Source: the human T2T-CHM13v2.0 reference genome, Homo sapiens. Taken from it: 64,000 nucleotides of DNA. Of the stretch, positions 3,971 through 51,190 are shown piece after piece (position 1 is the stretch's first letter; the number at the start of each line of letters is the position of its first letter). The notes beneath the pieces were generated by a model. The model had not been told where the DNA came from and did no database searches. It saw only the letters and a list, made by a program, of their open reading frames with translations. The position numbers and the translations under genes are program-made. The DNA lies in assembly GCF_009914755.1 (NCBI RefSeq), contig NC_060947.1; one strand, given 5' to 3'.

Positions 3971-4171
3971 AAAACCATCTGCTACTGAGAGAAAATCCCT
4001 GAATACTGAACCCCTCATTTATAAACATTCAAATGAAAGTTTAATTGGTAATTATAGCATCAAAAACAAACTTAAAGCAGTAAGTTCTGGTTTGATCTCT
4101 AGGACTTAGTAAGCAATTCTCAAGCTATTTATTTGTAAATAGTGATAGCTTCCATTAGAAAGTAATGCACT

Positions 4172-4779
<608 letters not shown>

Positions 4780-4789
4780 GTAATACACA

Positions 4790-5230
4790 GCACGCTCGAG
4801 GACTCACAAGATGACGGCAACCGGTGGGGAGACGGGCTCGAGAACTCGCGAGATGACGGTGGCCATTGAGGAGCTGGGCTTGAGGACTCGCGAGATGACT
4901 GCGGCCAATGGGGAGCCAGGCTTGAGGACTCGCGAGATGACACCTGCCGGTGGGACGCGGGCTTGAGGACTCACGAGGCGATGGCGGCTGGTGGGGAGCA
5001 TGGCGGCCCTTGCTAGGGGCGTTCTACAGTGCGACTGAGGAGGCCCAGGGTGTCCCGTTTGTTTCATCACCAGCAAGAGGCAGGCAGTGGTGCTGTCCGC
5101 GGTGGCATTCTTGGAGTGACTGGCGACAGAATACGTTCGTGACGGAACCGGGGTCTGAGGAGAGCTCTCCGCCTGCAGAAATGAGTGAACAGACTGCTGC
5201 ATTAGATACCTCGTCGCCACGCAATAAGGC
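4790..5230 (+). promoter_or_regulatory. Small CpG-island-like candidate promoter/5'UTR of the SIAH1 copy
   Basis: Most conspicuous CpG-rich tract outside transposons. Three intact CTCGCGAGA motifs and ATGGCGGC YY1-like cores. Activity is inferred, not shown. Confidence 0.55.
4794..5002 (+). repeat. CpG-rich tandem array of five ~42-bp units
   Basis: Units start at 4794, 4836, 4878, 4920 and 4961 with consensus GCT(C/T)GAGGACTCGCGAGATGAC...GG. Confidence 0.92.
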
Positions 5231-6014
5231 GCCTGCCCGTTCTGACAGGACTGTATCCAACAATGACTTGGCAAGTATCTTCCAGTGTCCGGTCTGCTTA
5301 GACTATGCGTTACCACCAATTCTTCAGTGTGAGAGAGGCCATCTTGTTTGTAGAAGCTGTCACTCAAAGCTCACATCTTGTCCAACTTGCCGCGGCCCCT
5401 TGGGATTGATTCGCAACTTGGCTATGGAGAAAGTGGCTAAGTTTGTACTTTTCCCGTGTAGATATGCCTGTTTGGGATGTGAAATCACTCTGCCACACAC
5501 AGAAAAAGCAGATCACGAAGAAGTCTGTGAGTTTAGGCTTTATTCCTGCCCGTGCCCTGGTACTGTCTGTAAATGGCAAGGCACCATGGATGCTATAATG
5601 CCTCATCTGACTAAAATGCATGAGTACATTACAACAATAGAGGGAGAGGATATAATTTTCCTTGCTACCAGCATTAATCTTGTTGGCGCTTACGATTGGG
5701 TGATGATACAGTCCTGTTTTGGCGTTCGCTTCATGTTAGTCTTGCAGAAACAGGAAGATCACAATGGCGGCCAGCAGTTCTTCGCAGTCGTACAGCTGCT
5801 GGGAGCAAGCAAGGAAGCTGAAAATTTTGCTTACCAACTTGAGCTAAAGGGTAATCGGCGACGACTGACTTGGGAAGCGACTCCTCTACCTATTCATGAG
5901 GACATAGCAAAAGCCATTAAGAATAGAGACTGCTTAATCTTTGACGCCAACACTGCGCTGCTTTTTGCAGAAAATGACGATTTAAGCATCAATGTAGTTA
6001 TTAGTAAGCGTTGA
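5181..6014 (+). CDS. SIAH1P1: SIAH1-like RING E3 ubiquitin ligase, intact 277-aa ORF; retrocopy probably annotated as a pseudogene
   Basis: MSEQTAA...SNNDLASIFQCPVCLDY...CERGHLVCRSC...CPTC (C3HC4 RING), two Sina zinc fingers and a TRAF-like substrate-binding domain (RRRLTWEATP). About 73% identical to my recalled human SIAH1 sequence by hand alignment, with no indels after SNNDLAS. The locus symbol is recalled, not verified. Confidence 0.85.
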   Translation: MSEQTAALDTSSPRNKAPARSDRTVSNNDLASIFQCPVCLDYALPPILQCERGHLVCRSCHSKLTSCPTCRGPLGLIRNLAMEKVAKFVLFPCRYACLGCEITLPHTEKADHEEVCEFRLYSCPCPGTVCKWQGTMDAIMPHLTKMHEYITTIEGEDIIFLATSINLVGAYDWVMIQSCFGVRFMLVLQKQEDHNGGQQFFAVVQLLGASKEAENFAYQLELKGNRRRLTWEATPLPIHEDIAKAIKNRDCLIFDANTALLFAENDDLSINVVISKR

Positions 6015-6276
6015 AATGGCAGTGGAACATTTTCTAGCCAGTGTTTAAAACTGTTTAATTTCACAGAAAATAAGCCACCCATCTGCCTGCCAACCTGAAA
6101 CTCTTCACAAGTATAAGCTCAACAAATAGAGATAAAAAGAAAGACTGTTGAATACAGGAAACAGTTGTGTGTAGTAACATTAGTATATATAAAGATGAGC
6201 ATATTTTGCATTAAGAAAGCATTATAAAATAATTTTGAATTTTGTGTTGTAGATTGATTGTATTGTTGAAAAATAA

Positions 6277-6623
<347 letters not shown>

Positions 6624-6929
6624 GTTTTTTTTTTTTTTTTTTCCTTTAACTGACAAGCCATTTTGAGTGGTCATGGACCACTGCTTTTCCGCTTTGTGAG
6701 TCAATACGTAGTGCTACTATGTGGGGTTTTTTTGTGTGTATTTGCTAGTTTTTTCTTCTAGTTTTTCATTAAATAGATTTGACTTTCTGTTCTGTAATTC
6801 AGGTTGCATCTCACTGTTTTGTACCGTTTTAAAGTTAGTGTCTTTTGATATGCATAATTGTTTATGGTAAAATTTATAACATGTGTTCCATACATGTTCT
6901 CTTTTCCCCCATTAATTGGTTCATTGGAA

Positions 6930-7227
6930 ATTTTTTTTTTTTTTTTGGACAGAGACTCTGTCGCCCAGGCTGGAGTGCAGTGGCGAGATTTTGGCTCACT
7001 GCAACCTCCGCCTCCTGGCTGGGTTCAAGCAATTCTCCTGTCTCAGCATCCCAAGTAGCTGGGACTACAGGCGCCCGCTACCACACCTGGCTAATTTTTG
7101 TATTTTTAGTAAAGACGGGGTTTCACCATATTGGTCAGGCTGGTCTTGAACTCCTGATCTCAGGTGGTCCACCCTCCTCGGCTTCCTAAAGTACTGGGAT
7201 TACAGGTGTGAGCCACCATGCCCGGCC
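6930..7227 (-). mobile_element. AluS inside the SIAH1 copy 3'UTR
   Basis: Full Alu with degenerate TSD gaaattttt/gaaatatttt. Confidence 0.93.
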
Positions 7228-7702
7228 AGAAATATTTTAAAATCAGCTGTTTTGTGAAGATAGGAGTTCCAGAAAGTAAAGGTGACATCGGAAAAATTAC
7301 CAAAAGCTATTTAAAACATCTATAAGATGGTCTTCCCATCTTTCTCTCTTCTACAGATGAGTCATGTCTTTGAGATTAATTTTTGAAAGCTTAGAGAATA
7401 AATAGATGTTTACAAATACTGAAAATCATTCCTTTTACAAGTATCTTGGACAAATTACGTTTAAAATTTGTTCTTGTGTTTATTGATTGTAAAGGCATTG
7501 TCATGCACAGAACTTAATTAAAAGCAAATCATTTGTTTAAAAAGGCACTTTGCAAAAACTGTTTTGGTCTTTCATAATTCTCATTAAAAGAATATATGGC
7601 AAATTAAAAAAGAAAGTAAAGAGAATAAATGTTGTAGCTTGGCTCAGTAAACGGCTCTAGCAGCAATGCTGGACTCGTCTTTAAGAAGTGTATAAAATAC
7701 AC

Positions 7703-8936: not shown

Positions 8937-9451
8937 AGTGTATAAAGTACACATTTTAAAAAGAAAAGCACCAATGCAGGGAAAGGCATGAAAAGTGGTA
9001 AATGAGAGGTACAATTTGTAAGTAATGCAGCTCAGGGGAAAAAAACAAAACCCTCATTTGGACAATCCTAACAAAGAAACTGAGACTTGGAGCATTCATC
9101 TTTAGGTGAGAGATTCATAACCAAAGTCTTGTAGCTGGTAAGTTGTATCACAGTATAATTTGTTTTTTTTAAAAATTTCAGTGATACGTGATTATTTACT
9201 TTCATAACTTAAAAAAGTTACAAACCAGTTAGAGAAAAGCAATATTTGGATAAACCTACACATGTCACACAAGATTTGTGGACTTTATAATAAGGAAGCC
9301 TAATCACTAATTCAAATACTATGACATGCTTGCAAGAATTAAAAGTGCATATCTTCCATTCTCTTTTAATTCTAGTCAGTTTTATATCTAGCATATAATT
9401 AGTCATTGGTTCCTTTCTCCAACTCACCTGTTTAATTGGTATTGCATTTTT

Positions 9452-12400
9452 TTTTATTTTATTATACTTTAAGTTCTGGGATACATGTGCAGAATGTGCA
9501 GTTTTGTTACATAGGTATACATGTGCCATGCTGATTTGCTGCACCCATCAACCCATCATCTACATTAGGTATTTTTCCTAATGCTTTCCCTCTCCTAGGC
9601 CCCCACCCCCCGACAGGCCCTGCTGTGTGATGTTCCCTTCCCTGTGTCCATGTTCTCATTGTTCAACTCCCATTTATGAGTGAGAACATGCGGTGTTTGG
9701 TTTTCTGTTCCTGTTATTTTGCTGAGAACAATGGCTTCCAGCTTCATACATGTCCCTGCGAAGGACATGAACTCAACCTTTTTTATGGCTGCACAGTATT
9801 CCATGGTGTATATGTGCCACATTTTCTTTATCCAGTCTGTCATTGATGGGCATTTGGATTGGTTCCAAGTCTTTGTTCTTGTGAATAGGGCTGCAATAAA
9901 CATACGTGTGCATGTGTCTTTATAGTAGAATGATTTATAGTCCTTTGGGTATATACCCAGTAATGGGATTGCTGGGTCAAATGGTATTTCTGGTTCTAGA
10001 TCCTTGAGGAATCACCACACTGTCTTCCACAATGGTTGAACTAATTTACACTCCCACCAACAGTGTAAATGCATTCCTATTTCTCTATATCCTCTCCAGC
10101 ATCTGTTGTTTCCTGACTTTTTAATGATCGCCATTCTAACTGGTGCAAAATGGTATCTTGTTGTGGTTTTGATTTGCATTTCTCTAATGACCAGTGATGA
10201 TGAGCGTTTTCTCATATGCTTATTGGCCACATAAGTATCTTCTTTTGAGAAGTGTCTGTTCTTATCCTTTGCCCACTTTTTGATGAGATTGTTTGTTTTT
10301 TTTTTTCTTGTAAATTTGTTTAAGTTCCTTGTAGATTCTGGATATTAGCCCTTTGTCAGATGGATAGATTGCAAAAATTTTCTCCCATTCTGTAGGTTGC
10401 CTGTTCACTCTGATGATAGTTTCTTTTGCGGAAGCTCTTTAGTTTAATTAGATCCCATTTGTCAATTTTGGCTTTTGTTGCCATTGCTTTTGGTGTTTTA
10501 GTCATGAAGTCTTTGCCCATGCCTGTGTCCTCAATGGTATTGCCTAGGGCTTCTTCTAGGGTTTTTATGGTTTTAAGTCTTACGCTTAAGTCTTTAATGC
10601 ATCTTGAGTTAATTTTTCTATAAGGTGTAAGGAAGGGGTCCAGTTTCAGTTTTCTGCATATGGCTGGCCAGTTTTCCCAACACCGTTTATTAAATAGGGA
10701 ATCCTTTCCCCATTGCTTGTTTTTGTCAGGTTTGTCAAAGATCAGATGGTTGTAGATGTGCGGCATTATTTCTGAGGCATCTGTTCTGTTCCATTGGTCT
10801 ATATATCTGTTTTGGTATCAGTACCATGCTCTTTTGGTTACTGTAGCCTTGTAGTTTAGTTTGAAGTCAGGTAGTGTGATGCCTCCAGCTTTGTTCTTTT
10901 TGCTTAGTATTGTCTTGGCTATACGGGCTCTTTTTTGGTTCCATATGAAATTTAAAGTAGTTTATTCTAATTCTCTGAAGAAAGTCAATGGTAGATTGAT
11001 GGGGATAGCATTGAATCTATAAATTACTTTGGGCAGTATGGCCAGTTCCATGATACTGGTCCTTCCTATCCATAAGCATGGAATATTTTTCCATTTGTTT
11101 GTGTCCTCCCTTATTTCCTTGAGCAGTGGTTTATAATTCTCCTTGAAGAGGTCCTTCACATCCCTTGTAAGTTGTATTCCTAGGTATTTTATTCTGTTTG
11201 TAGCAATTGTGAATGGGAGTTCATTCATGATTTGGCTCTCTGTCTATTATTCGTGTATAGGAATGCTTGTGATTTTTGCACATTGGTTTTTTATCCTGAG
11301 ACTTTGCTGAAGTTGCTTATTAGCTTAAGGATATTTTGGGCTGAGACGATGGGGTTTTCTAAGTATAGAATCATGTCATCTGCAAACAGAGATGATTTGA
11401 CTTCCTCTCTTCCTATTCGAATACCCTTTATTTCTTTCTCTTGCCTGATTGCCCTGGCCAGAACTTCCAATACTGTCTTGAATACGAGTGGTGAGAGAGA
11501 GTATCCTTGTCTTGTGCCAGTTTTCAAAGGGAATGCTTCCAGCTTTTGCCCATTCAGTATGATACTGGCTGTGGGTTTGTCATAAACAGCTCTTATTATT
11601 TTGAGATACGTTCCATCAATACCTAGTTTATTAAGAGTTTATAGCATGAAGTGGTGGGATTTGATAAAATCCAAAGGCCTTTCCTGCATCTATTGAGATA
11701 ATAATATGGTTTTTGTAATTGGTTCTGTTAATGTCATGGATTACATTTATTGATTTGCATATGTTGAACTAGCCTTGCATCCCAGGGATGAAGCTGACTT
11801 GATCGTAGTGGATAAGCTTTTTGCTGTGCTGCTGGATTCGGTTTGCCAGTATTTTATTGAGGATTTTCACATTGATATTCATCAGGGATATTGGCCTGAA
11901 ATTTTCTTTTTTTGTTGTGTCTCTGCCAGGTTTTGGTATCAGGATGATGCTGGCCTCATAAAATGAGTTAGGGAGGAGTCCCTCTTTTTCTATTGTTTGG
12001 AATTGTTTCAGAAGGAATGGTACCAGCTCCTCTTTGTACCTCTGGTAGAATTCAGCTGTGAATTCATCTGATCCTGGGCTTTTTTTGGTTCGCAGGCTAT
12101 GAATTACTGCCTCAATTTCAGAACTTGTTATTGGTCTATTCAGGAATTCGACTTCTTCCGAGTTCAGCCTTGGGAGGGTGTATGTGTCTAGGAATTTGTC
12201 CATTTCTTCTATATTTTCTAGGTTATTTGCATAGAGGTGTTTATAATATTCTCTGATGGTAGTTTGTATTTCTGTGGGATCAGTGGTGATATCCCCTATA
12301 TCATTTTTTATTGTGCCTATTTGATTATTCTCTCTTTACTTCTTTGTTAGTCTGGCTAGCAGTCTATCTATTTTATTAATCTTTTCAAAAAAACAGCTGC

Positions 12401-15400
12401 TGGATTCATTGATTTTTTTGAAATGTTTTTTGTGTCCCTATCTCCTTCAGTTCTGCTCTGATCTTAGTTATTTCTTGTCTTCTGCTAGCTTTTGAATGTG
12501 TTTGCTCTTGCTTCTCTAGTTCTTTTAATTGTGATGTTAGGATGTCGATTTTAGATCTTTCCCGCTTTTTTCTGTGGGCATTTAGTGCTATCAATTTCCC
12601 TCTAAACACTGCTTTAGCTGTGTCCCAGAGATTCTGGTATGTTGTGTCTTTGTTCTCATCGGTTTCAAAGAATTTATTTATTTCTGCCTTAATTTTGTTA
12701 TTTACCCAGTAGTTATTCAGGAGCAGGTTGTTCAGTTTCCAGGTAGTTGTGTGGTTTTTAGTGAGTTTCTTAATCCTGAGTTCTAGTTAGATTGCACTGT
12801 GGTCTGAGAGACTGTTATGATTTCCGTTCTTTTGCATTTGCTGAGTAGTGTTTTACTTCCAATTATGTGTTCAATTTTAGAATAAGTGGGACAGGGTGCT
12901 GAGTAGAATGTATATTCTATTGATTTGGGGTGGAGAGTTCTGTAAATGTCTATTAGGTCCTCTAGGTCCAGAGCTGAGTTCAAGTTCTGAATATACTTGT
13001 TAATTTTCTGTCTCATTGATCTGTTTAATATTGACAGTGGGGTGTTAAAATCTCCCACTGTTATTGTATGGGAGTCTAAGTCTCTTTGTAGGTCTCTAAG
13101 AACTTGCTTTACGAATCTGGGTGCTCCTGTATTGGGTGCATATATATTTAGGATAGTTAGCTCTTCTTGTTGCATTGATCCCTTTATCATTATGTAATGC
13201 CCTTCTTTGTCTTTTTTGATCTTTGTTGGTTTAAAGTCTGCTTTATCAGAGACTAGGATTGCAACCCCTGCTCTTTTTTTGCTCTCCATTTGCTTGGTAA
13301 ATATTTGTCCATCCCTTTATTTTGAGCCTATGTGTGTCTTTGCACGTGAGATGGTTCTCCTGAATATAGCACACTGATGGGTCTTGACTCTATCCAATTT
13401 GCCAGTCTGTGTCTTTTAATTGGGGTAGTTAGCCCACTTACATTTAATATTGTTATGCATAAATTTGATCCTGTCATTATGATGCTAGCCAGTTATTTTG
13501 CCCATTAGTTGATGCAGTTTCTTCATACAATTTGGTATGTTTTTACAGTGGCTTGTACCGGTTTTTCCTTTCCATATTTAGTGCTTCCTTCAGGAGGTCT
13601 TGTAAGGGAGGCCTGGTGGTGGCAAAATCTCTCAACATTTGCTTGTCTGTAAATGATTTTATTTCTCCTTCGCTTATGAAGCTTAGTTTGGCTGGATATG
13701 AAATTCTGGGTTGGAAATTATTTTCTCTAAGAGTGTTGAATATTGGCCCCCACTCTCTTCTGGCTTGTATGGTTTCTGCAGAGATCCGCTGTTAGTCTGA
13801 TGGGCTTCCCTTTGTGGGTAACCCGACCTTTCTTTCTGGCTGCCCTTAACATTTTTCCTTCATTTCAACCTTGGTGAATCTGACGATTATGTGTCTTGGG
13901 GTTGCTCTTCTCGAGGACTATCTTTGTGGTGTTCTCTGGATTTCCTGAATTTGAATGTTGGCCTGTCTTGCTAGGTTGGGAAGTTCTCCTGGATAATATC
14001 CTGCAGAGTGTTTTCCAACTTGGTTCCATTCTCCCCGTCACTTTCAGGTACACCAATCAAACGTAGGTTTGGTCTTTTCTCATAGGTTTGGTCTTTTCTC
14101 ATTGTCCCATATTTCTTGGAGGCTTGTTTGTTCCTTTTCATTCTTTTTTATCTAATCTTGTCTTCACACTTTATTCCATTAAGTTGATCTTCAATCTCTG
14201 ACATCCTTCCGCTTGATTGATTAGGCTATTGATACTTGTGTAAGCTTCACAAAGTTCTTGTGCTGTGTTTTTCAGTTCCATCGGGTCATTTATGTCCTTC
14301 TCTAAACTGGTTATTCTAGTTAGCAATTCCTCTAACCTTTTTTCAAGGTTCTTAGCTTCCTTGTATTGGGTTAGAACATGCTCCTTTAGCTCAGAGGAAT
14401 TTATTATTACCCACCTTCTGAAGCCTACTTCTGTCAATTTATCAAACTCATTCTCTGTCCAGTTTTGTTCCCTTGCTGGCAAGGAGTTGTGATCCTTTGG
14501 AGGAGAAGAGGTATTCTGGTTTTCAGAATTTTCAGCCTTTTTGCTCTGGTTTTTCCTTATCTTTGTGGATTTATCTATCTTTGGTCTTTGATGCTGGTGA
14601 CTTTTGGATGGGGTTTGTATGGACATCCTTTTTGTTGATGTTGCCCCTATTCCTTTGTGTTTGTTAGTTTTCCTTCTAACAGTCAGGCCTCTCTGCTGCA
14701 GGTCTGCTGGAGTTTGCTGGAGGTCCACTCCAAAGCCTGTTTGCCTGGGTATCATCAGTGGAGGCTGCAGAACAGCAAAGACTGCTGCCTATTCCTTCCT
14801 CTGGAAGCTTTATCCCAGAGGGTCGCCTACCAGATGCCAGCCGGAGATTTCCTGTATGAGGTGTCTGTCGACCCCTGCTAGGAGGTGTCTCCCAGTCAGG
14901 AGGCATGAGGGTCAGGGTCCCACTTGAGGAGGCAGTCTGTCCCTTAGCAGAGCTCGAGTGCTGCGCTGGGAGATCCGTTGCTGTCTTCAGAACCAGCAGG
15001 CAGGAACCTTTAAGTCCACTGAAGCTGTGCCCACGGCCGCCCCTTCTCCCGCTTGCTGTGTCCCAGGGAGATGGGAGTTTTATCTATAAGCCCCTGACTT
15101 TCTTTCAGAGATGCCCTGCTCAGAGAGGAGGAATCTAGAGAGGCAGTCTGGCTACACTGGCTTTGCCAAGCTGCGGTGGGCTCCACCCAGTTCGAACTTC
15201 CCGGTGGCTTTGTTCACACTTTGAGGGAAAAACCACCTACTCAAGCCTCAGTAATGGCAGACGCCCCTCCCTGCACCAAGCTTGAGCGTCCCAGGTCGAC
15301 TTCAGACTGCTGTGCTGGCAGCAAGAATTTCAAGCCAGTGGATCTTAACTTGCTGGGCTCTGTGGGGGTGGAATCCACTGAACTAGACCACTTGAGTCCC

Positions 15401-48852: not shown

Positions 48853-49207
48853 TGTATTAGTTCATTTTCATGCTGCTGATAAAGACATACCTGAGACTGG
48901 GAAGAAAAAGAGGTTTAATTGTACTTACACTTTCACATGGCTGGGAGGCCTCAGAATCAAGGCGGAAGGTGAAAGGCACTTCTTACGTGGTGGCAGCAAG
49001 AGAAAATGAGGGAGATGCAAGAGTGCAAACCCCTGATAAAACCGTCAGATCTCGTGAGACTTACCCGCTGCCACGAGAACACGATGGGAGAAACCACCCC
49101 CATGATTCAAATTAACTCCCACTGGGTCCCTCCCACAACACGTGGAAATTATAGTAGCACAATTCAAGATGAGATTTGCATGGGGACACAGAGAAAAACC
49201 ATTATCA
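48853..49207 (-). mobile_element. THE1A/B MaLR LTR
   Basis: tgtattagttcattttcatgctgctgataaagacatacctgagactggg...ccattatca. Perfect 5-bp TSD atgat. Confidence 0.88.

Positions 49208-50320: not shown

Positions 50321-51190
<870 letters not shown>

What the first reader, a model, noticed from the sequence alone, without database searches (positions are those of the whole stretch)
4794..5002. 42-bp tandem array multiplying CGCG-element (BANP/ZBTB33-type) and YY1-like motifs directly upstream of the SIAH1 copy
Seen: five units at 42,42,42,41-bp spacing. Units 2-4 keep ACTCGCGAGA (palindromic core CTCGCGAG). Units 1 and 5 carry CpG-decay-type variants (CTCACAAGA, CTCACGAGG). Each motif is followed by ATGAC or ATGGCGGC, resembling YY1 AAGATGGCGGC. 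Established: TCTCGCGAGA is a methylation-sensitive activating element of CpG-island promoters bound by BANP. Here the match is 9 of 10 bases. A 42-bp period is four helical turns, so the sites are in phase. CpG survival suggests germline hypomethylation. Inference: a tandem-repeat-built, methylation-gated promoter that could drive germline or cancer-testis-like expression of the retrogene.
Basis: partly seen in the sequence, partly recalled or inferred. Interest (0 to 1): 0.78.

Follow-up and report, generated by a model that had tools for sequence, protein, structure and literature searches.

The report
Amplified leader of intact SIAH1 retrogene
The repeat is the front end of a SIAH1 messenger-RNA copy, duplicated five times after two changes made it resemble a known activating promoter motif, and it likely serves as the promoter of a gene labelled a pseudogene that still has an intact, fast-changing reading frame in humans and its likely counterparts in other apes and monkeys.

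Summary
The array is real (five units, 4794-5002; three ACTCGCGAGA). It lies inside the retrocopy, not upstream of it: each unit is the first ~42 nt of parental SIAH1 exon 1, and the target-site duplication is 5' of it. The parent reads ACGCGCGAAA (7/10 to the CGCG consensus). Two changes shared by all five units gave the 9/10 motif before amplification. Three CTCGCGAG spaced 20-50 bp occur nowhere else in the genome. Array CpGs decayed like nearby Alus, the YY1 match is weak, and the 42-bp period comes from the parent, so those arguments fail. The larger result: the 'pseudogene' SIAH1P1 has an intact 277-aa ORF. It forms a 100/100 clade with full-length gibbon, colobine and New World monkey proteins, keeps 16 of 16 zinc ligands (P 2e-5), yet has diverged faster than its 3'UTR. 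Best reading: a functional simian X-linked SIAH1 retrogene whose promoter was likely built by amplifying its own 5' leader. Expression, methylation and BANP binding are untested.

The parts
4157..4165 (+). 5' copy of the retrocopy's target-site duplication (AGAAAGTAA, preceded by TT)
   Evidence: same 9-mer at 7611-7619 after the poly(A) remnant; TT/AGAA resembles an L1 endonuclease site (recalled)
4172..4758 (+). two tandem Alus inserted at the retrocopy's 5' junction after retroposition; their flanking duplication includes the target site plus the first, CpG-decayed cDNA bases (4157-4171 and ~4775-4789)
   Evidence: (308-bp period)
4784..4793 (+). inferred 5' end of the retroposed cDNA, a CpG-decayed version of the parental bases just before the repeat unit
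   Evidence: comparison with reverse-complemented L007; inference
4794..4835 (+). unit 1, motif decayed (4802-4811, 3 mismatches to consensus)
4836..4877 (+). unit 2, ACTCGCGAGA at 4844-4853
4878..4919 (+). unit 3, ACTCGCGAGA at 4886-4895; CCAAT at 4905
4920..4960 (+). unit 4 (41 bp), ACTCGCGAGA at 4928-4937
4961..5002 (+). unit 5, motif decayed (4969-4978); runs on into the rest of the exon-1 homolog; predicted TSS zone ~4957-5007 if the 20-70 nt rule of PMC6192621 applies
   Evidence: TSS is inferred
5003..5178 (+). rest of the SIAH1 exon-1 homolog (5' leader); with the array forms a 385-bp CpG-rich stretch (GC 0.64, CpG o/e 0.84), the densest in the window
5178..5179 (+). exon1/exon2 junction; the parent's 22,788-bp intron is absent
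5181..6014 (+). intact 277-aa SIAH1-like ORF (RING, two zinc fingers, substrate-binding domain); 196 of 277 residues identical to SIAH1; one in-frame 15-nt deletion
6015..7605 (+). 3'UTR homolog interrupted by two Alus (~6383-6622, ~6956-7227); ATTAAA at 7583
7606..7619 (+). poly(A) remnant and 3' copy of the target-site duplication (7611-7619)

Best explanation
The array is a five-fold tandem duplication of the first ~42 bases of the retroposed SIAH1 mRNA, and it likely acts, with the rest of the copied GC-rich leader, as the promoter of SIAH1P1, which has an intact reading frame and is likely a functional simian retrogene rather than a pseudogene. Shown: homology of every unit to SIAH1 exon 1; position inside the target-site duplication; four bases shared by all units and absent from the parent, two of which raise the motif from 7/10 to 9/10 of the CGCG consensus; an intact ORF; a simian clade of full-length proteins with all zinc ligands kept. 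Inferred: a SIAH1 mRNA was inserted on Xp in a simian ancestor; its leader acquired the CTCGCGAG palindrome in place of an E2F-like site; slippage at short G/C-rich microhomology copied it five times early on; where unmethylated, units 2-4 would recruit BANP or a like factor and start transcription tens of bases downstream, probably in germ cells, while methylation spreading from the two adjacent Alus would silence it elsewhere. The protein would be a SIAH-type E3 ligase with a retained VxP pocket and a fast-changing surface.
For: Window 4957-5173 matches chr16 SIAH1 exon 1 at E 1e-15 and nothing else in the genome; all five units align to the same parental stretch; target-site duplication and spliced junction. 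The parental state is ancestral: N-terminal extensions of other SIAH1 proteins read RAKRRR through this site in Tasmanian devil (P0014) and an unnamed record (P0013), whereas the retrocopy bases would give ARstop (read from protein, not DNA). Triple CTCGCGAG at 20-50 bp: 1 locus in 3.1 Gb; triple TCGCGA at 6-36 bp: 6 loci; ACTCGCGAGA: 139 copies, 3 here. PMC6192621 passages: one CGCG element drives a reporter, activity rises with copy number, SssI abolishes it, TSS lies 20-70 nt away. ORF: clade of human, gibbon, snub-nosed monkey, marmoset and capuchin proteins at 100/100 with species-tree topology and 22 shared derived features; 16 of 16 zinc ligands invariant versus 132 of 252 columns, P 2e-5; neutral simulations left the ORF intact in at most 3 of 150 runs per setting; pocket residues F165, L166, D177, W178 invariant, A175 kept in human. 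0-fold sites changed 70 of 493 versus 19 of 378 retrocopy-specific changes in the 3'UTR (p 4e-4 with the 6 ambiguous columns added). ORF holds 28 CpGs versus a simulated mean of 12-15 (max 26) under 10x CpG decay.
Against: No expression, TSS, chromatin, methylation or ChIP data were available. Array CpGs decayed about as fast as Alus (ratio 4.65 versus 4.52), and 2 of 5 motifs are lost. The ACT-flank variant is not among the variants named in the PMC6192621 passages or in its two readable supplements; CCT, AGG and ATG flanks lowered activity. The isolated BANP BEN domain bound methylated and unmethylated CGCG similarly in vitro (PMC10206803). Seven upstream ATGs lie in the array and leader. 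I could not see the array in any other species, so its conservation is unknown. Orthology rests on a tree, not synteny, and the protein database shows only intact copies. Fast protein change is not significant if all 4-fold or all 3'UTR divergence is put on the retrocopy branch (p 0.30 and 0.06); pairwise dN/dS to the parent is 0.67-0.94.
Confidence: 0.5

Rival explanations
1. The retrogene is functional, but the array is a neutral old minisatellite. Transcription comes from the rest of the inherited CpG-rich leader, from the adjacent Alus, or from a distant upstream exon; the CGCG likeness is an accident multiplied by duplication.
For: One founder suffices (about 2.5% of shuffles give one near-match); array CpG decay matches Alus; core retention not significant (p 0.07); PMC4772013 passages: about 86% of expressed retrocopies use novel promoters and about 3% inherit parental ones.
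Against: Two of the four pre-amplification changes hit the three mismatched motif positions with the right bases (post-hoc probability about 0.002); the three central units keep 6 of 6 core CpGs; this is the only CpG-dense stretch next to the ORF.
Confidence: 0.3
2. The gene and its promoter worked in ancestral simians but are now silent or decaying in humans, as the RefSeq pseudogene label implies.
For: RefSeq label (finding header); no paper under the gene name; edge motifs decayed; the human terminal branch since gibbon is long (0.082 changes per site).
Against: The human ORF keeps every zinc ligand and the pocket core despite that branch length.
Confidence: 0.13
3. An ordinary processed pseudogene with a chance-open frame and a chance minisatellite.
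For: Pairwise dN/dS near 1 at high kappa (0.94); database ascertainment towards intact copies.
Against: Five lineages with full-length proteins, about one amino-acid change per site summed over the clade, 16 of 16 zinc ligands kept; neutral ORF survival at most 2% on a single lineage.
Confidence: 0.05

Closest known systems
Retrogenes with an inherited parental promoter (PMC4772013, passages seen: about 3% of expressed retrocopies)
   Same: The candidate promoter is parent-derived sequence carried in on the mRNA and is CpG-rich.
   Different: Here the inherited piece is the parent's first transcribed bases, changed at a motif and then tandem-amplified, rather than an intact alternative promoter; no TSS has been shown.
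Multi-copy CGCG-element / BANP-motif promoters such as DENR (PMC6192621 passages and supplements; PMC9363121 passages)
   Same: Three CGCG-type motifs within about 100 bp in a GC-rich, TATA-less stretch.
   Different: ACT flank rather than TCT/TAT; motifs sit in a 42-bp tandem repeat of retroposed origin; half of the CpGs have decayed; the known examples are housekeeping genes.
HAPSTR2, an X-linked functional retrogene (PMC9834230, passages seen)
   Same: Into-X retrocopy with a preserved ORF and a nearby CpG island.
   Different: HAPSTR2's promoter does not align to its parent and it is mammal-wide; SIAH1P1 appears simian-specific, fast-evolving and labelled a pseudogene.
SIAH/SINA E3 ligases (SIAH1, SIAH2; PDB 8heo, 4i7b, 9g0l); mouse X-linked Siah1b (recalled)
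   Same: RING plus two zinc fingers plus substrate-binding domain, all ligands kept.
   Different: About 70% identical to SIAH1, which is otherwise nearly invariant in vertebrates; other mammalian SIAH1-like copies fall outside the simian clade. Siah1b was not in the tree; that it is a separate rodent copy is recalled.

Membership tests
CGCG element / BANP-motif promoter | TCTCGCGAGA consensus or a tolerated variant | tested here: inconclusive
   9/10 in three units; this flank variant was not found among those tested in the passages and two supplements read
CGCG element / BANP-motif promoter | lies in a CpG island | tested here: met
   385 bp, GC 0.64, o/e 0.84; meets the 200-bp definition but is short of the 500-bp one (thresholds recalled)
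CGCG element / BANP-motif promoter | unmethylated where active | tested here: inconclusive
   indirect only: array decay like Alus; ORF CpG excess over simulation
CGCG element / BANP-motif promoter | TSS 20-70 nt away, open chromatin, BANP bound, motif-dependent activity | not testable with these tools
   no functional genomics data available
   no match on either strand of 4781-5183; only ATGGCGGC at 4981 and 5000
Processed retrocopy | intron loss, poly(A) remnant, target-site duplication | tested here: met
Functional retrogene | intact ORF kept across species with signs of selection | tested here: met
   (orthology by tree, not synteny)
Functional retrogene | transcribed and translated | not testable with these tools
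   no RNA or proteomics data; P0001 and P0004 come from records whose type (RNA or DNA) is not shown
Retrogene with inherited parental promoter | sequence upstream of the TSS aligns to the parent | tested here: inconclusive
   alignment to the parent is shown; the TSS is unknown
SIAH E3 ligase | RING and zinc-finger ligands, VxP-binding pocket | tested here: met
   16 of 16 ligands; F165, L166, A175, D177, W178 kept in human; L158I, Q159E, V164I, V176Y changed

The most novel reading that the evidence does not exclude
Humans carry an unrecognised fourth SIAH ligase gene: a simian-specific, positively selected, X-linked retrogene that built its own methylation-gated promoter by converting an E2F-like site in its copied 5' leader into a BANP motif and amplifying it five-fold, giving the only triple-CTCGCGAG array of this spacing in the genome.
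Probability: 0.25. Interest if true: 0.85.

Novelty: new variant of a known kind. Interest (0 to 1): 0.62.

Why it matters
It would correct a pseudogene label on a likely protein-coding, fast-evolving E3 ligase of monkeys and apes; Siah1a is required for male meiosis I in mice (title of a reference seen). It would also show a route to promoter birth beyond the usual three (inheritance, piggy-backing, de novo): motif change plus tandem amplification of the retrocopy's own leader. Parent, copy and five datable units make this directly testable with a small reporter series.

Tried and rejected
Transposon or satellite origin of the unit: rejected, the only other genomic match is SIAH1 exon 1 (that search skips common words). 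Motif inherited unchanged from the parent: rejected. YY1 array and helical phasing: no support. Hypomethylation from array CpGs: not supported; only 15 Alu CpG columns were detected, which biases the Alu ratio low, so mild protection is not excluded. GC-biased conversion as the cause of fast protein change: first and second codon positions show 23 weak-to-strong versus 32 strong-to-weak changes, no sign of it (counted). Looking for the array in other primates through predicted proteins: only the window's own protein, a chimeric-looking record (P0004) and one near-identical antisense ORF with one change (P0121) were found. The first polarisation included non-homologous columns and was replaced. 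The fourth near-match at 49050 lies in an unrelated stretch. Literature: 0 papers for SIAH1P1; alias and topic searches gave nothing on this locus; PMC2198940 lists 'SIAH1L' in a table with no locus in its readable supplement. Supplements of PMC4772013 were unreadable and may list this retrocopy. The Nature 2021 BANP paper was not held and is cited through PMC9363121. Structure and complex prediction were not run: at 70% identity they would add little.

Full report
1. Observation. The array is as described: period 42, 4.9 copies at 4794-4999, five copies at spacings 42, 42, 42, 41. ACTCGCGAGA lies at 4844, 4886 and 4928; the window has 4 near-matches to TCTCGCGAGA against 0.19 expected. Units 1 and 5 are three mismatches from the consensus. 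Genome-wide, three CTCGCGAG spaced 20-50 bp occur at this locus only (control pattern: 7); three TCGCGA spaced 6-36 bp at 6 loci; the exact 10-mer 139 times. Since the copies share one founder, the fair chance figure is for one match: 49 of 2000 shuffles of 4794-5178.

2. Origin. A DNA search with 4785-5200 gave 2 of 2 candidates: itself and SIAH1 exon 1 on chr16 (69%, E 1e-15). All five units align to the same stretch at the start of that exon. The human parent has a longer GGC run; a translated Aotus SIAH1 retrocopy (P0056) suggests a shorter ancestral run that would give a 42-nt unit (my reading). The retrocopy's target-site duplication AGAAAGTAA lies at 4157-4165 and 7611-7619, and the exon1/exon2 junction at 5178/5179 lacks the 22,788-bp intron. 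So the array is inside the retroposed cDNA, which I infer starts at about 4784. Two Alus later entered the same target site. RefSeq starts the pseudogene at 4978 and so leaves four units out.

3. The motif is derived. The parent reads ACGCGCGAAA (7/10), which on the other strand matches the E2F-type pattern TTTSSCGC (pattern recalled; match). I found no paper tying this site to E2F. At four unit positions (11, 17, 21, 32) all five units differ from the parent; 11 and 17 make the CTCGCGAG palindrome. Protein extensions that read through this site give RAKRRR in Tasmanian devil (P0014) and in P0013, matching the parent, so the changes arose in the copy before amplification. The chance that two of four changes hit the three mismatched positions with the right bases is about 0.002, but this is post hoc and many motifs could have been noticed. 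Units differ from their consensus at 10 of 129 non-CpG positions (7.8%, CI 4-14%), comparable to the retrocopy branch of the 3'UTR (19 of 378, CI 3-8%), so amplification is old.

4. CpG survival: of 40 CpG positions in the array 18 are kept, 19 decayed and 3 changed otherwise; the decay to non-CpG ratio is 4.65 against 4.52 for 15 Alus (13 from the window, 2 from other loci; only 15 CpG columns detected, which biases the Alu figure low). Cores are kept 7 of 10 against 11 of 30 elsewhere, p 0.07. This is no evidence for hypomethylation. The ORF gives a modest sign the other way: 28 CpGs against 20 in the parent and a simulated mean of 12-15 with 10x decay, with 10 against 5 at codon positions 3-1; selection on the protein confounds this. 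YY1: no AANATGGC match. Phasing: 42/10.5 is 4.0, but the unit follows parental sequence with G/C-rich microhomology at its ends, and 6 of 31 periods from 30 to 60 would qualify.

5. What the literature says of the motif. PMC6192621 (passages and two supplements seen): one element drives bidirectional reporters, activity scales with copy number, SssI abolishes it, TSSs lie 20-70 nt away, CCT/AGG/ATG flanks lower activity, Kaiso (ZBTB33) binds only the methylated form; the ACT-flank variant and SIAH1 were not found there. PMC9363121 (passages) reports BANP as the methylation-dependent activator, citing a 2021 paper I could not open. PMC10206803 (passages) found the isolated BEN domain prefers TCTCG half-sites, which these motifs keep on the minus strand, and is nearly blind to methylation in vitro.

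6. The gene. 5181-6014 is an unbroken 277-aa ORF, 196 of 277 identical to SIAH1. Of 547 homologs (best 120 listed) I put 26 plus the two human proteins in a tree. Human SIAH1P1, gibbon (85%), snub-nosed monkey (82%), marmoset and capuchin (68-69%) form a 100/100 clade in species-tree order, share 22 derived features including a five-residue deletion, and exclude strepsirrhine, carnivore, bat and other SIAH1-like copies, while SIAH1 itself is nearly invariant. All 16 zinc ligands are invariant against 132 of 252 columns (P 2e-5); neutral simulations at 5-11% divergence kept an intact frame in 0-3 of 150 runs per setting (the kappa, CpG and indel parameters were my assumptions). The VxP pocket described in PMC10135883 (passages) keeps F165, L166, D177 and W178 in all five. 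The protein also changes fast: 70 of 493 0-fold sites differ, essentially all on the retrocopy branch, against about 5% in its 3'UTR when polarised with two older chr12 SIAH1 fragments (p 4e-4). Against this, the excess vanishes if all 4-fold divergence (14 of 75) is given to the retrocopy (p 0.30), is borderline against total 3'UTR divergence (p 0.06), and pairwise dN/dS is 0.67-0.94. Positive selection is likely but unproven. Orthology lacks a synteny check, and broken orthologs would not appear in a protein database.

7. Mechanism. A selected ORF needs transcription, and 4794-5178 is the densest CpG stretch in the window and directly abuts the ORF. I therefore favour it as the promoter, with the three CGCG motifs as likely activators and a start near unit 5, which would skip five of the seven upstream ATGs. 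Germline restriction is an inference from the into-X retrogene pattern (PMC4772013 abstract and passages: young retrogenes are often first expressed in testis) and from the adjacent Alus. My odds: origin from the SIAH1 leader 0.97; selected gene in simians 0.85; still active in humans 0.7; this stretch is the promoter 0.6; CGCG/BANP is the driver 0.35-0.4.

8. Novelty. Inherited retrogene promoters and multi-copy CGCG promoters are both known. I found no report of this locus, and I recall no case of a retrocopy promoter made by motif change plus amplification of its own leader, though I ran no search aimed at that mechanism. Most subscription papers and the supplements of PMC4772013 were out of reach, and NCBI already predicts the protein in other primates as 'SIAH1-like'. 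I rate it a new variant of a known kind, interest 0.62, more for the probably mislabelled fast-evolving ligase gene than for the unproven promoter.

Noticed in passing
G000:C12:91098932-91099413 (L010) and G000:C12:21432587-21433081 (L013): Two older SIAH1 3'UTR-only fragments (78% and 73% identity), used as outgroups; no coding match was found by the protein search.
   Followed up: partly
proteins P0032-P0048, P0054, P0056, P0061, P0091: Many mammals (strepsirrhines with two copies, carnivores, moles, bats, anteater, owl monkey) carry their own diverged full-length SIAH1-like copies outside the simian clade, suggesting repeated SIAH1 duplication; buffalo has an X-linked SIAH1-like gene in a semen-trait GWAS region (PMC10740893 passages).
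   Followed up: partly
window 4811-4966, 4981-5016, 5000-5038: Upstream ORFs made by CpG decay: a 51-aa repeat ORF through units 1-4 and two short ones with strong-looking start contexts; they could tune translation.
   Followed up: partly
window 4804-5316, minus strand: An antisense open frame of up to 170 codons spans the array and leader; a 99% identical record exists (P0121). Probably a by-product of the GC-rich repeat.
   Followed up: partly
G000:C19:57620463-57620543, C2:54252508-54252557, C18:2331723-2331806, C19:3469224-3469344, C8:9226180-9226238: The other five loci with three clustered TCGCGA; some look like short tandem repeats and could be comparable motif arrays.
   Followed up: no
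G000:C9:125232088-125286439: ACTCGCGAGA recurs at about 5.4-kb spacing at least 11 times, a large tandem array.
   Followed up: no
window 50443-50725: Young-looking Alu with 13 of 14 scored CpGs kept and a flanking duplication.
   Followed up: no
window 9437-14813: Repeat-masked stretch with L1-like ORF fragments on the minus strand (12783-13289 and 14171-14755; family recognised from memory).
   Followed up: no
P0004: An assembled record with the SIAH1P1 N-terminal half joined to the SIAH1 C-terminal half; most likely an assembly chimera at a shared stretch.
   Followed up: no
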